Positions 35,301 through 53,300 of a stretch of DNA of 64,000 nucleotides are shown here, one piece after another (position 1 is the stretch's first letter; every line of letters begins with the position of its first letter). The position numbers are program-made. Source of the DNA: Ylistrum balloti (taxonomy: Eukaryota); NCBI RefSeq assembly GCF_031769215.1, contig NW_026782006.1:992001-1056000 (forward strand), read 5' to 3'.

Positions 35301-38300
35301 GAACTCTTCTTACCAGGAACGGTGCTTTCGATGAAATCCTTGATTTGATTTTCCCGTCCAACGAAGTTTACATCAAATATGTCCATCTGCATACATCTTC
35401 GTTTGTGTTCCACAAACTTCGTTTTGTACTTTTTTAACATATCCGCTACTCTGTTACGGCCTAGGTCACGATGCCAGTTTTGAAAATCTGTCACATTGAT
35501 CAGAAAATCAAGCATGTCTTCTTCTCCGAAATTATTCTTCAGAATTTGGAAATAATGGGTCGCATTTTGTATATTGTTTTTGGACAACCCGCCGAGTGAA
35601 GTCCTCGACAGATTGATAATCTCGTCAAATGTCAAGTCATCGCCATCCAAATCTGAGATGAGATCATTTACAATCACATCAAAGGGATCTAACCTAGTTT
35701 GATCTCCAAACGCAATACGGTCATCTTTTGTGTAAGCCATTGTGGTCAGATTCAGCTCGGCTCTGTAGGTATTTCTCTTTGCCCCAGAGGTGGATTCATA
35801 TATTTTGACAAACGTCTATATCTGGACCAAGAACTATGGAATATCCATCTACCAAGAAAATAAAAAAACAGGCAGGTAATGACAGCTCTGATATATACAA
35901 TGAGATTTTGTCCCTTATCACGGGCCTTCGGCGTCCATCGGCCGAAAGGATTATCGAGACACCAAAATTTACACCACTTTTTTCGATTTTAGTTTATAAC
36001 TTTGTATTTATTTGATGTTCTATGTGAAAATATGACAATGGCAGTGGCCCCCTCCAGGGGGACTCAGGAGGTGGGGTGAGGGCTCCTGGAAAAATTTGTA
36101 AACAAAGAAGCCTGTCGGTGCTAACATGGCTTAATTAAATGACCATGAATAACACAATGTTTAATTGTTGTTAGAAACAAGAAATAAAAGTGGGTGGCTA
36201 AAAGGCATCGTCCCATTCAGAATCTTCTTCATCGCTGACAGTGTCCTCTTACCTTTCCTTCATTTCATGGTCAAGGTTTAGCCGTTGCACAGCCACCCTC
36301 ACCTGGGACACAGGCTCACCAAGACTGCCAGATACAACAGCTGGGTCAGTTTGTATCCCGGAGTCCTGGACCTCGGTCAGAAGTTCCTTATCAATCATGG
36401 CATATGAAATATCACGTTTGGGAGGTGGTTTATAACTTTCTATTTATTTGATGTTCTATGTGAAAACTTGACAATTCGCTTGTCCGTACTGTCGATATTA
36501 CTTCAGCCATCATATATCTATTCCAGTAACACGCATCCAAAGAACAATTGTTTGTTAGGATCCAGTACGGATATTAGACCATAACCGTTAATATTACTTA
36601 CCAGGTTTCATATATGTATATCACTCATACTTATCATTGCAGTCCCATTATCTCTACTTTAATCTACTAATCAAACCTCACCTTCCAAGGTTCTGTGATC
36701 ACATTGGCCTGAATGAATATGACATTTCTCCTTTTTACGTAGTTTACATGTTTATAACATCCTCGGTAAGTGTAGGACTAGACGCTTTCGTAGAATTCTG
36801 ATCATTCAGTTTTTATGCAAAGGGGGTTTAATCTGCATTCGGTAAAAATGATATCCGATCTTATTGACACATTTTATGGTCTTTACTTGTTCTTTAAACG
36901 TTAAGCGATGAAAAAAATTGTTTACAGACCGACGATAGACTACGGACGTAAGGCGACTGTCCAGCATTTGAACTTGGGCTGAAAAAGATTACATATCAAA
37001 GGATGTTCTCAAAAAGATCGCGGTTTTTCTTTTAACACCCTCGACTGTATATGTTAAACGTAGTTACCTTATATATTTCTGACTACTATTTTTATCATGA
37101 ATTGTAGGTAACAATATTGTATATATATATACAGTCTACATATCAGGTGATTTCCTAGGTAAATACAGTCTACATACCAGGTGCTTTCCCAGATAAGTAC
37201 ATTCTACATACCAGTTGATTCCCCAGGTAAGTACCATAATCATACCATTTGATTCCCTAGGTAAGTACCATAATCATACCAGGTGATTTCCCAGGTAAGA
37301 ACAGTCTACATACCAGGTGCTTTCCCAGATAAGTACAGTCTACATACCAGATGATTTCCCAGGTATGTACAGCCTACATACCAAATGATTTACCAGGTAA
37401 GTACCGTCTACATACACAGGTGATTTTCAGGTAAGTACAGCCTACATAACAGGTGATTTCCCAGGTAAGTACAGCCTACATACCAAATAATTTCCCAGGT
37501 GTTAGTAAATTACAATAATGTCTATATGACATGCCTCGAGAGCGTTGCTCGAAACTATCACTGATACATGTTTACCTGCAAATCAACCTCCGACATCAAG
37601 GCCTTCCCGTTTTGACTACGGCTATTGGGTCTCCTAGAGAGACTTCTTCAGCAATTATTCAGGCTACAGCTCCGACAAGCACCTATACATTACAAGCCAA
37701 TAGATGAAGTTTCAGACTGGGTCCCCTACCTGTTTGTTCTGTCACGAACTATAAAATAGAGAACATTTCCTTCTATACTGTCCGAAACGGGAACGCAAAC
37801 ATGAAAAACATCTACCACAAATACTTTTAAACACCAGATATATACTATGAGTGTAGCTACTGATCCTGAAGTCGACAAGATTGTACCTTCCCGATAGTGC
37901 AAGAATTGTATAATCCAAGTGAAAACGACACGAGCAAAATCGAAAGAATCAGCCTATTTCTGGAATATTACCTTCATCTGCAAAGATCAAGTTTGATGGT
38001 CTCCAAATTGAAGCTAACCACTTCAGTGTACTATAACAAATGTCAGTTACTATTATGAGTCCAAGTAGGGGATATGTTGATTTAATGTAACTTCCTCTTC
38101 TAACATACAATTTGTATGACTGCGCATTTAATCTTTCCGTGATGTGCGCAGCGTTGACGTGTGCATCAATTAATTTTCATGCGTTAATGTGCATTACCCA
38201 TTTCTAAACTGGGGTACAAATCCAGTTTTAAGTTTCAGCTAAATTATGACGACCGACACAAAAAATTGAAAAAATGAGCTGCACTTACATATTTATCTGC

Positions 38301-50300: not shown

Positions 50301-53300
50301 ATCCACCAATCATTTGACGAAATCCAAAAAAAAGACACGCACTTCAACAATAACGGTAACACACAGATGTGTATGTGTATCGTTATATAACAGTGATGTT
50401 TATGTATCCAGGGTTTTCTATAAATATTTTAATAATAGGCTGTAAAATGGAGTAGGAGTCTGGCGAAGCCAGCCGACTGAGCCGTAACGCGGCGAGGCGG
50501 GGATGGTTTGAGGAGGGGGCACTGGCCCCCTCCAGGGGACTCAGGAGGTGGGGTGAGGGCTCCTGGAAAAAATTGTAAACAAAGAAGCCTGTCGGTGCTA
50601 ACATGGCTTAATTAAATGACCATGAATAACACAATGTTTAAAAGGCATCGTCCCATTCAGAATCTTCTTCATCGCTGACAGTGTCCTCTTACCTTTCCTT
50701 CATTTCATGGTCAAGGTTTAGCCGTTGCACAGCCACCCTCACCTGGGACACAGGCTCACCAAGACCGCCAGATACAACAGCTGGGTCAGTTTGTATCCCA
50801 GAGTCCTGGACCTCGGTCAGAAGTGCCTTATCAATCATGGCATATGAAATATCACGTTTGGGAGGTGGTTTATAACTTTCTATTTATTTTGATGTTCTAT
50901 GTGAAAATATGACAATTCGCTTGTCCGTACTGTCGATATTACTTCAGCCATCATATATCTACTCCAGTAACACGCATCCAAAGAACAATTGTTTGTTAGG
51001 ATCCAGTACGGATATTAGACCATAACCGTTAATATTACTTACCAGGTTTCATATATGTATATCACTCATACTTATCATTGCAGTCCCATTATCTCTACTT
51101 TAATCTACTAATCAAACCTCACCTTCCAAGGTTCTGTGATCACATTGGCCTGAATGAATATGACATTTCTCCTGTTTACGTAGTTTGCATGTTTATAATA
51201 TCCTCGGTAAGTGTAGGACTAGACACTTTCATAGAGTTCTGATCATTTCAGCTTTTATGCAAAGGGGGTTTAATCTGCATTCGGTAAAAATGATATCCGA
51301 TCTGATTGACACATTTTAAGGTCTTTACTTGTTCTTTAAACGTTAAGCGATGAAAAAAATTGTTTACAGACCGACGATAGACTACGGACGATAAGCGACT
51401 TGTCCAGCATTTGAACTTGGGCTGAAAAAGATTACATTTCAAAGGGTGTCCTCAAAAAGATCGCGGTTTTTCTTTTAACACCCTCGACTGTATATGTTAA
51501 ACGTAGTTACCTTATATATTTCTGACTACTATTTTTATCATGAATTGTAGGTAACAATATTGTATATATATATATACAGTCTACATACCAGGTGATTTCC
51601 TAGGTAAATACAGTCTACATACCAGGTGCTTTCCCAGATAAGTACATTCTACATACCAGTTGATTCCCCAGGTAAGTACCATAATCATACCATTTGATTC
51701 CCCAGGTAAGTACCATAATCATACCAGGTGATTTCCCAGGTAAGAACAGTCTACATACCAGGTGCTTTCCCAGATAAGTACAGTCTACATACCAGATGAT
51801 TTCCCAGGTATGTACAGCCTACATACCAAATGATTTACCAGGTAAGTACCGTCTACATACACAGGTGATTTTCCAGGTATGTACCGTCTACATACCAGGT
51901 GATTTTCCAGGTAAGTACTTCTTCATACCAGGTGATTTCCCAGGTAAGTACCGTCTACATGCCAGGTGATTACCCGGAGAAGTACCGTTTACATACCAGA
52001 TGATTTCCCAGGTAAATATATTCTACATACCAGGTGATTTCTCAGGTATGTACCGTCTACATACCAGTTGATTTCCCAGGTAAGTACCGCCTACATACCA
52101 GGTGATTTCCCAGGTAAGTACCGTTTACATACCGGTTGATTTCCCAGGTAAGTACCGTTTACATACCGGTTGATTTCCCAGGAAAACACCGTTTACGTAC
52201 CAGTGATTTACCAGGTAAATACAGACTACATACCAGGGGGTTTTCAGGTAAGTACAGCCTACATACCAGGTGATTTTCAGGTAAGTACAGCCTACATAAC
52301 AGGTGATTTCCCAGGTAAGTACAGCCTACATACCAAATAATTTCCCAGGTGTTAGTAAATTACAATAATGTCTATATGACATGCCTCGAGAGCGTCGCTC
52401 GAAACTATCACTGATACATGTTTACCTGCAAATCAACCTCCGACATCAAGGCCTTCCCGTTTTGACTACGGCTATTGGGTCTCCTAGAGAGACTTCTTCA
52501 GCAATTATTCAGGCTACAGCTCCGACAAGCACCTATACATTACAAGCCAATAGATGAAGTTTCAGACTGGGTCCCCTACCTGTTTGTTCTGTCACGAACT
52601 ATAAAATAGAGAACATTTCCTTCTATACTGTCCGAAACGGGAACGCAAACATGAAAAACATCTACCACAAATACTTTTAAACACCAGATATATACTATGA
52701 GTGTAGCTACTGATCCTGAAGTCGACAAGATTGTACCTTCTCGATAGTGCAAGAACTGCATAATCCAAGTGAAAACGGTAACATTATCGGTATATCACAG
52801 TAATGTTTATGTATCGGTATATCACAGTAATGTTTATGTATCGGTATATCACAGTAATGTTTATGTGTAGGTATATAACAGTAATGTCTATGTATTGGTA
52901 TACCACATTAATGTTTATGTATCGGTATATCACAGTAATGTTTATGTGTAGGTATATAACAGTAATGTCTATGTATTGGTATACCACATTAATGTTTAGG
53001 TATCGGTATATCACATTAATGTTTAGGTATCGGTATATCATAGTGGTGTTTATGTATCGGTATATCACAGTGTTGTATGTATACCACAGTGGGTATACGG
53101 TATATCACAGTAATGTGTGTGTATATGTATCGGTATATCACAGTAATGTTTATGTGTCACAGTGTTGTTTATGTATATACCACAGTGGTGTATGTATGTA
53201 TATCAGTAATGTATGTGTGGTATATCACAGTAATGTTTATGTGTAGGTATATAACAGTAATGTCTATGTATTGGTATATCACAGTAATGTTTATGTGTAG

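What the first reader, a model, noticed from the sequence alone, without database searches (positions are those of the whole stretch)
36046..52777. 16.7-kb near-identical tandem array sitting on the NLR promoter/5' region
Seen: the array begins only ~200 bp upstream of the NLR 5' UTR acceptor. The NLR needs at least one further upstream exon, and the nearest strong minus-strand donor (AAG|GTAAGA, about 36251) lies in the repeat unit. Copies 3-5 look identical. Inference: the 5' exon or promoter cassette may be multiplied about sixfold, giving a copy-number-variable regulator of an immune gene.
Basis: partly seen in the sequence, partly recalled or inferred. Interest (0 to 1): 0.65.

Follow-up and report, generated by a model that had tools for sequence, protein, structure and literature searches.

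The report
Six-copy 3-kb repeat upstream of gene
A real, very young 16.7-kb array of a non-coding 3-kb unit sits directly upstream of a P-loop/TPR receptor-like gene, and each unit carries motifs that could be that gene's promoter and leader exon, though nothing here shows they are used.

Summary
A head-to-tail array with a 2,991-bp period spans 36040-52777 (16,738 bp, about 5.6 units), plus a 48-bp stub of a further copy at 35992-39. Copies 4 and 5 are identical, copy 3 differs by one 1-bp indel, and the edge copies are 0.1-2.3% diverged outside an internal 34-bp minisatellite. The unit has no ORF of 90 aa or more, no Pfam, Rfam or tRNA match and no transposon ends. It is a macrosatellite in a window that is 48.7% tandem repeat.

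The neighbouring minus-strand gene is not a NACHT-LRR NLR. It has a P-loop (sub-threshold STAND/NB-ARC hits) and KLC-type TPRs, and the middle of its NTPase domain was not found.

All frames are closed between it and the ATG at 35740. Each unit carries, in the gene's orientation, minisatellite, then TATATAAG/CAGT pair, then four clustered donor-like sites (five per unit against 0.5-1.0 expected).

So a six-fold promoter/leader-exon cassette is plausible (about 0.4). It rests on motifs only, partly chosen post hoc. Transcripts, copy-number variation and assembly correctness stayed untestable.

The parts
35992..36039 (.). 48-bp stub of a further copy (unit phase 888-936), joined by a deletion junction to phase 537 at 36040
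   Evidence: 96% match to 44888-44936; alignment across the junction
36040..38088 (.). copy c1, partial: starts at unit phase 537, has a 34-37-bp insertion at about 36165-36198, and its internal minisatellite is only 371 bp
   Evidence: 97.7-98.7% identical to the other copies outside the minisatellite
38089..41010 (.). copy c2 (2,922 bp); shares 11 of its 13 substitutions with c1
41011..44000 (.). copy c3 (2,990 bp), one 1-bp indel against c4
44001..46991 (.). copy c4 (2,991 bp), used as the reference unit
46992..49982 (.). copy c5, identical to c4
   Evidence: whole-unit string equality
49983..52777 (.). copy c6, ends at unit phase 2830 where the 27-bp minisatellite begins
45594..46403 (.). 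internal 34-bp minisatellite of the unit (23.9 repeats in c3-c5, 10.9 in c1, 21.9 in c2, 22.9 in c6); CACCTG occurs 12 times in c4
37043..37075 (-). TATATAAG, 19 nt, then ACAGTC (TATA/Inr-like pair) of copy c1. The same pair sits at 45505-45537 in c4 and once in every copy
   Evidence: motif match only, and the pattern was chosen post hoc
35849..35868 (-). acceptor-like site: pyrimidine tract (14 of 17) plus TAG, with AG at 35850-35849
35314..35848 (-). first coding exon: leader 35848-35741 closed in all three frames, ATG at 35740, donor CTG|GTAAGA, phase 1
34695..34806 (-). exon 2, P-loop (GAGGIGKT)
   Evidence: nSTAND3 E=3.4e-4 and NB-ARC E=5.7e-3, both below Pfam cut-offs
34285..34445 (-). 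exon 3, phase-compatible with exons 2 and 4
33138..33244 (-). exon 4, Walker-B-like IVMLDNVDD
26044..27675 (-). large exon: GIPLAL stretch, then KLC-type TPRs. Its 3' limit is either the stop at 26044-26046 or an unlocated donor
   Evidence: TPR_12 33.8 bits against a cut-off of 30.1
52785..54023 (.). 27-bp minisatellite abutting the array, related to unit phase 365-434

Best explanation
Shown. This is a young macrosatellite: a non-coding 2,991-bp unit built around a 34-bp minisatellite, repeated about 5.6 times head to tail. Its central copies are identical and its edge copies are older. It lies in a region where half the DNA is tandem repeat. It abuts the 5' end of a minus-strand P-loop/TPR (STAND-like) gene.

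Inferred.
(1) The array arose and is kept homogeneous by unequal exchange or replication slippage between units. The c3-c5 triplet is the most recent expansion.
(2) The duplicated segment is the gene's own ancestral upstream region. In the gene's orientation each unit reads minisatellite, then TATA/Inr-like pair, then a leader exon of about 366-796 nt, then donor-like sites.
(3) The left end of repeat homology (about 35990) falls between those donors and the acceptor-like site at 35850-49. That places it inside what would be intron 1.
(4) The promoter plus non-coding leader exon would therefore be present six times. The copy in c1 is the nearest, giving an intron of about 400-830 nt. Upstream copies could splice to the same acceptor, because the array has no acceptor-like site of the top strength class.
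(5) Copy number could then tune transcription of the gene.
For: Array anatomy and identity gradient. c1 and c2 share 11 variants, and c3-c5 are identical.

Non-coding, non-RNA, non-transposon unit:
- 0 of 66 ORFs of 90 aa or more lie in the array.
- 20 of the unit's 27 ORFs of 45 aa or more were scanned against Pfam, with best E=0.064.
- Rfam gave 0 matches at gathering score, and only E=2.7 and 4.8 in a permissive scan.
- There are 0 tRNAs and no terminal inverted repeats.

Repeat-prone context: 48.7% of the window is tandem repeat.

Acceptor rarity: 7 minus-strand sites in 64 kb, 0 of them in the array. The leader is closed in all frames.

Donor-like enrichment on the gene's strand: 5 observed against 0.53-1.01 expected, reached by 0-1 of 500 shuffles. 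The other strand has 1-2.

The strict TATA/Inr pair occurs once per copy, 0 times elsewhere on the minus strand, and in 5 of 300 shuffles.

The gene model is coherent at its 5' end, with exons 1-4 phase-compatible.
Against: - No transcript evidence of any kind was available.
The gene's own exon-1 donor scores below the threshold of 6 that I used.
- The TATA/Inr pattern was written after seeing the site. The CAGT core fits published Inr consensuses only in part (recalled). A looser pair occurs about 2 times per 3 kb of strand, and TATAWAWR alone 3.8 times.
- The putative leader exon carries 15 of c1's 24 substitutions, so it shows no sign of constraint.
- It contains an ATG-started 53-codon ORF that would act as a strong upstream ORF.
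- Moderately good acceptor-like sites exist inside the unit (44582 and 44458, 13 of 17 pyrimidines). Transcripts from distal copies need not skip to the gene.
- The middle of the gene's NTPase domain was not found in the 10 ORFs tested, so the gene may be decayed.
- Perfect identity over 8.4 kb could also come from assembly or polishing.
Confidence: 0.42

Rival explanations
1. Neutral macrosatellite, with the gene promoter outside it. The array is a by-product of the local tandem-repeat instability. The gene's TSS lies in the 35741-35990 gap, the acceptor-like motif is unused, and the array matters at most as upstream chromatin.
For: Half the window is tandem repeat and ten other arrays flank the gene on both sides. 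The unit shows no constraint in the putative exon. A TATATAT lies at 35897-35891. The motif evidence for the cassette weakens under loose definitions.
Against: TATATAT is common in the window (108 on the minus strand, 73 on the plus strand), and no Inr-like core sits at canonical spacing from this one (read). The acceptor-like site is among the 7 best on the strand. The donor-like enrichment in the unit is strand-specific.
Confidence: 0.3
2. The unit is its own transcription unit (a non-coding RNA, or a relic of another gene or an unrecognised non-autonomous mobile element), amplified in tandem and unrelated to the neighbouring gene.
For: The unit holds promoter-like and donor-like motifs together with acceptor-like sites at 44582 and 44458, so multi-exon transcripts confined to the array are possible.
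Against: No similarity to any Rfam family or Pfam family. No terminal repeats. No other copy in the remaining 47 kb apart from the 48-bp stub and the 27-bp repeat relation. Dispersal elsewhere in the genome could not be tested.
Confidence: 0.12
3. The array lies inside a long 5' intron. The true first exon and promoter are upstream of 52777, and the array is intronic.
For: The acceptor-like site implies an upstream exon, and nothing forces that exon to be in the array.
Against: Upstream of the array there is only a 27-bp minisatellite and decayed LINE fragments on the minus strand. Just one donor-like site with score 6 or more lies in 52778-64000, at 59781 inside the LINE debris.
Confidence: 0.08
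4. Assembly artefact in copy number or identity. The locus has the repeat, but the three identical central copies were created or homogenised by assembly or polishing. This can hold together with any of the other explanations.
For: 8,433 bp are perfectly periodic, including an 810-bp minisatellite that differs in length in every other copy.
Against: The edge copies carry structured, shared variants (c1/c2 haplotype; c6 shares two sites with c2). They also have different minisatellite lengths, as expected of a real array with central homogenisation. Reads were not available.
Confidence: 0.15

Closest known systems
Human macrosatellites such as DXZ4 and D4Z4 (kb-sized tandem units). Basis: PMC3218863, PMC3018141 and PMC5687341, of which I saw the search listing and the start of each abstract only
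   Same: A unit of about 3 kb, an uninterrupted head-to-tail array, not obviously protein-coding (DXZ4 is described that way in the abstract start of PMC3218863), and high inter-copy identity.
   Different: Only about 6 copies here. There is no sequence relationship. The unit is built around an internal minisatellite. The array directly abuts a gene's first coding exon. Chromatin behaviour and polymorphism are unknown.
Promoter-associated polymorphic tandem repeats and large VNTRs acting as expression modifiers. Basis: PMC4857002 and bioRxiv 10.1101/2020.12.16.423078, search listing and start of abstracts only
   Same: A tandem repeat in a gene's 5' region that could change expression with copy number.
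   Different: Here the repeated unit may contain the whole core promoter and leader exon rather than sit beside them. No expression or population data exist for this locus.
Variable-first-exon clusters (protocadherin and UGT1A type), recalled from general knowledge and not from a call
   Same: As a working analogy: several promoter plus first-exon cassettes in tandem, each able to splice to one common downstream acceptor.
   Different: In those clusters the first exons are coding and differ from one another. Here they would be identical and non-coding, giving dosage rather than diversity. Nothing here shows the splicing.
Invertebrate and fungal STAND NTPases with TPR repeats (NB-ARC/NACHT-TPR 'NLR-like' genes). 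Basis: PMC3879445 passages read; PMC4986451 listing only
   Same: P-loop, Walker-B-like and GIPLAL stretches followed by KLC-type TPRs.
   Different: No Pfam NTPase model reaches its cut-off on single exons. The middle of the domain was not found. The N-terminal domain has no recognisable family. There is no LRR.

Membership tests
Macrosatellite / large VNTR | kb-sized unit repeated head to tail without spacers | tested here: met
   2,991-bp period, six copies in register, 36040-52777
Macrosatellite / large VNTR | high inter-copy identity with homogenisation (centre more uniform than edges) | tested here: met
   c3-c5 identical; c2 99.2%, c6 99.3-99.9% and c1 97.7% identical to c4 outside the minisatellite
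Macrosatellite / large VNTR | copy number varies between individuals | not testable with these tools
   only one assembled window; no reads and no population data
NLR in the strict sense (NACHT + LRR, as defined in PMC3879445) | NACHT domain | tested here: inconclusive
   No NACHT hit on any exon. The P-loop exon gives nSTAND3 E=3.4e-4 and NB-ARC E=5.7e-3, both below their cut-offs. Searching exon by exon lowers power.
NLR in the strict sense (NACHT + LRR) | C-terminal leucine-rich repeats | tested here: not met
   The large exon gives TPR_12/TPR_10 and kinesin-light-chain TPRs, and no LRR
NB-ARC/STAND-TPR receptor-like genes | P-loop NTPase domain of the STAND class recognised above family cut-off | tested here: inconclusive
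   GAGGIGKT, IVMLDNVDD and GIPLAL stretches are present; the motif names are recalled. Pfam scores are below cut-off. The middle of the domain was not found in the 10 ORFs tested.
NB-ARC/STAND-TPR receptor-like genes | C-terminal TPR array | tested here: met
   TPR_12 33.8 bits against a cut-off of 30.1; TPR_10 28.9 against 27.5
Tandem promoter / first-exon cluster spliced to a common acceptor | each unit has its own promoter and a first exon ending in a donor | tested here: inconclusive
   TATA/Inr-like pair and donor-like cluster in every copy; motif level only
Tandem promoter / first-exon cluster spliced to a common acceptor | transcripts join unit donors to the common acceptor | not testable with these tools
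   no transcript data available
Transposable-element tandem array (LTR-internal-LTR, Helitron, DNA transposon) | terminal repeats or characteristic ends, and coding remnants | tested here: not met
   No terminal inverted repeats. The array ends show no TG...CA ends or repeated termini. No Pfam hit in 20 of the unit's 27 ORFs. No repeat library was available.
Tandem RNA-gene array (5S, snRNA, SL RNA, tRNA) | unit contains a recognisable RNA gene | tested here: not met
   Rfam gave 0 at gathering score and only E=2.7 and 4.8 in a permissive scan; ARAGORN found 0

The most novel reading that the evidence does not exclude
All six units are live, identical promoter plus leader-exon cassettes. Each cassette is driven by its own E-box-rich minisatellite, and all of them splice to the single acceptor at 35850-49. 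Unequal exchange in the array would then act as a fast, reversible dosage dial for an innate-immune-type STAND receptor. This would be a first-exon cluster that encodes quantity rather than diversity.
Probability: 0.12. Interest if true: 0.65.

Novelty: new member of a known kind. Interest (0 to 1): 0.36.

Why it matters
If the unit really holds the gene's promoter and leader exon, this locus would show how a repeat-prone region can multiply a whole core-promoter cassette. Expression of a receptor-like gene would then depend on copy number and could evolve quickly. That is directly testable with long reads and transcript-start mapping. If not, it is one more macrosatellite in a minisatellite-rich region, and mainly a warning that this part of the assembly needs read-level validation.

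Tried and rejected
RNA-gene array: Rfam found 0 matches at gathering score on the whole window. A permissive scan of 35700-41100 gave only mir-728 (E=2.7) and Yfr1 (E=4.8), far below their cut-offs. ARAGORN found 0 tRNAs.

Coding unit: no ORF of 90 aa or more lies in the array. I sent 20 of the unit's 27 ORFs of 45 aa or more to Pfam. The 7 left out were five further minisatellite-frame ORFs and two duplicates of ORFs spanning the unit boundary. The best E-values were 0.064-0.097, all far below the cut-offs. One search, which sent whole-frame translations, was rejected because of stop codons and was replaced by those two calls.

Transposon: no terminal inverted repeats and no LTR-like ends at the array borders.

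NF-kB sites in the minisatellite: 0 matches to the consensus in any copy. GGGAAA half-sites and CACCTG occur in about half of the repeats.

Death-fold identity of exon 1:
- No Pfam hit and no NCBIfam hit.
- PDB best E=0.15, to unrelated proteins.
- Atlas best score 0.76.
- The AlphaFold single-sequence model has pLDDT 39.4, so no fold search was run.

Middle of the NTPase domain: 10 candidate minus-strand ORFs between 27.8 and 33.0 kb gave no family.

Protein-level or DNA-level copies of the unit elsewhere in the window: only the 48-bp stub and the 27-bp repeat relation were found.

One search failed on a search-term sign and was re-sent, which turned up no closer precedent in its listing.
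Full report
**Observation**

The window has no N, so no masked stretch is involved. I do not take it for human. It is 36% GC and 48.7% tandem repeat. It also holds a P-loop/TPR gene with Tc1/mariner-like and LINE debris in and around it.

Tandem Repeats Finder shows a 34-bp minisatellite recurring six times at about 2,991-bp spacing. BLAST of 44001-47000 against the window shows the macro-repeat:
- 41011-44009 at 99.97% identity;
- 46992-49991 at 100%;
- 38089-40422 at 98.5%;
- 49983-52350 at 97.8%;
- 36199-37500 at 96.8%.

The edges are at 36040 (unit phase 537, with a 34-37-bp insertion at about 36165-36198) and at 52777 (phase 2830).
- c4 equals c5 exactly;
- c3 differs from c4 by one 1-bp indel;
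- 8,433 bp (41564-49996) are perfectly periodic.

**Anatomy of the array**

Outside the minisatellite, identity to c4 is 97.7% for c1, 99.2% for c2, 100% for c3 and c5, and 99.3-99.9% for c6. Minisatellite length is 371, 742, 810, 810, 810 and 776 bp from c1 to c6. c1 and c2 share 11 substitutions, and c6 shares two sites with c2. This structured gradient, with old edges and a uniform centre, is what unequal exchange produces in a real array.

The two ends are not in register.
- Left end: the 48 bp left of the array (35992-36039) match unit phase 888-936 at 96%. They join phase 537 by a deletion junction, and left of about 35990 homology stops.
- Right end: the unit stops at phase 2830 and a 27-bp minisatellite (52785-54023) begins. 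This minisatellite is related to about two repeats inside the unit, at phase 365-434.

**What the unit is not**

- None of the 66 ORFs of 90 aa or more in the window lies in the array. The longest stop-to-stop frame in the unit is 77 aa.
- I scanned 20 of the unit's 27 ORFs of 45 aa or more against Pfam. The best E-value was 0.064, far below any cut-off.
- Rfam found nothing at gathering score. A permissive scan gave only E=2.7 and 4.8.
- There are no tRNAs.
- No terminal inverted repeats were found, and the borders have no LTR-like ends.
- The rest of the window holds no other copy.

The unit is therefore non-coding DNA, a macrosatellite. It lies among ten other minisatellite arrays that fill the window on both sides of the gene.

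**The neighbouring gene**

The gene is on the minus strand. These exons are fixed by frame and splice phase:

| Exon | Coordinates | Notes |
|---|---|---|
| 1 | 35848-35314 | ATG at 35740 |
| 2 | 34806-34695 | GAGGIGKT |
| 3 | 34445-34285 | |
| 4 | 33244-33138 | IVMLDNVDD |
| large exon | from 27675 | GIPLAL stretch, then TPRs |

Family evidence is as follows.
- The large exon reaches the Pfam cut-offs for TPR_12 and TPR_10.
- It matches kinesin-light-chain TPRs in the PDB, with E down to 1.7e-4.
- It matches TPR clusters in the Atlas, with scores up to 0.97.
- The P-loop exon gives only sub-threshold nSTAND3 and NB-ARC hits.
- Exon 1 has no recognisable family and an unusable structural model.
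- The middle of the NTPase domain was not found among the 10 ORFs tested.

By the definition quoted in PMC3879445 (passages read), a bona fide NLR has NACHT plus LRR. This gene is better called a STAND-like P-loop/TPR gene. Its intactness is open.

**Does the array carry the gene's 5' exon or promoter?**

The acceptor-like site (pyrimidines 14 of 17, TAG, AG at 35850-49) is one of 7 of that strength on the minus strand in 64 kb, and none lies in the array. The gene's confirmed exon-2 acceptor scores 12 of 17. All three frames are closed between 35848 and the ATG. Anything spliced on would therefore be a non-coding leader.

Repeat homology begins 142 bp upstream. Such an exon must therefore lie in the array or beyond 52777.

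In the gene's orientation each unit reads as follows, in c4 coordinates:
1. the minisatellite;
2. TATATAAG at 45537-45530;
3. 19 nt;
4. ACAGTC;
5. donor-like sites with G at 45142, 45062, 44762 and 44712.

Counting one more site at 46632, there are five donor-like sites per unit on this strand. Dinucleotide shuffles give 0.53-1.01, and 0-1 of 500 shuffles reach five. The other strand has 1-2.

The strict TATA/Inr pair occurs once per copy and nowhere else on the minus strand. It occurs at one plus-strand site in the window, and in 5 of 300 shuffles.

The left breakpoint of homology (phase about 886) falls between the 1062/1142 donors and the acceptor, inside the would-be intron 1. That fits a duplication of the gene's own upstream region.

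**Weaknesses**

- These are motif matches only.
- The donor weights are recalled, and the gene's own exon-1 donor falls below my threshold.
- The TATA/Inr pattern was written after seeing the site. A looser version is common, at about 2 per 3 kb of strand, and TATAWAWR alone occurs 3.8 times per 3 kb.
- The putative leader exon is the most diverged part of c1, with 15 of its 24 substitutions.
- It carries a 53-codon ATG-started ORF.
- Acceptor-like sites of 13 of 17 pyrimidines exist inside the unit.

**Comparison and novelty**

The closest known kind is the macrosatellite, or large VNTR, at a gene's 5' end. Examples are DXZ4/D4Z4-type arrays and promoter-associated tandem repeats that modify expression. 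For PMC3218863, PMC3018141, PMC5687341, PMC4857002 and bioRxiv 10.1101/2020.12.16.423078 I saw the search listing and the start of each abstract only. A search for tandemly repeated promoter/first-exon arrays listed no closer precedent. That one search does not show that none is in print.

As a working analogy it resembles variable-first-exon clusters (recalled), but with identical non-coding first exons. I file it as a new member of a known kind.

**Left unchecked**

- Any eukaryotic genome or transcript collection, so dispersal of the unit, orthologous loci and transcripts are unknown.
- Reads, and therefore assembly correctness and copy-number variation.
- The joined spliced model.
- Supplements of the papers.
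- The genome-contig scan, which I did not use because that collection holds bacteria and archaea only.

Noticed in passing
window 1-24000 and 52785-54023: Ten separate minisatellite arrays with 21-44-bp units. The largest is 15823-21827 (42 bp x 143). Together with the macro-array, 48.7% of the window is tandem repeat. The gene is hemmed in by arrays at both ends.
   Followed up: partly
window 28174-28967 (+): Tc1/mariner-like transposase remnant inside the gene's 5.4-kb intron (DDE_3 E=0.011, below cut-off).
   Followed up: partly
window 57035-61302 (-) and 31023-31340 (+): Decayed LINE fragments. On the minus strand upstream of the array: RVT_1 at E=1.6e-13 and 2.2e-7, and endonuclease at E=1.3e-4. 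An endonuclease-looking ORF in the gene's intron gave no Pfam hit.
   Followed up: partly
window 35848-35741 (-): The leader of the first coding exon holds two upstream ATGs with short ORFs: a 4-codon ORF starting at 35848 and one of about 15 codons near 35797 (read).
   Followed up: no
window 27690-33137 (-): The part of the NTPase domain expected between the Walker-B exon and the GIPLAL exon was not found in the 10 ORFs tested. Exon 4 and the large exon are both phase 0, so they could even join directly. The gene may be truncated or decayed, or small exons were missed.
   Followed up: partly
window 45594-46403 and equivalents: On the plus strand the 34-bp minisatellite consensus contains AGGTAAG. 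That gives 67 plus-strand donor-like matches in the window. On the minus strand about half of the repeats carry CACCTG.
   Followed up: partly
window 52780-54023 against 44365-44434: The 27-bp minisatellite that ends the array is related (79-90% identity) to about two repeats inside the unit. This suggests the right border was remodelled by minisatellite expansion or deletion.
   Followed up: partly
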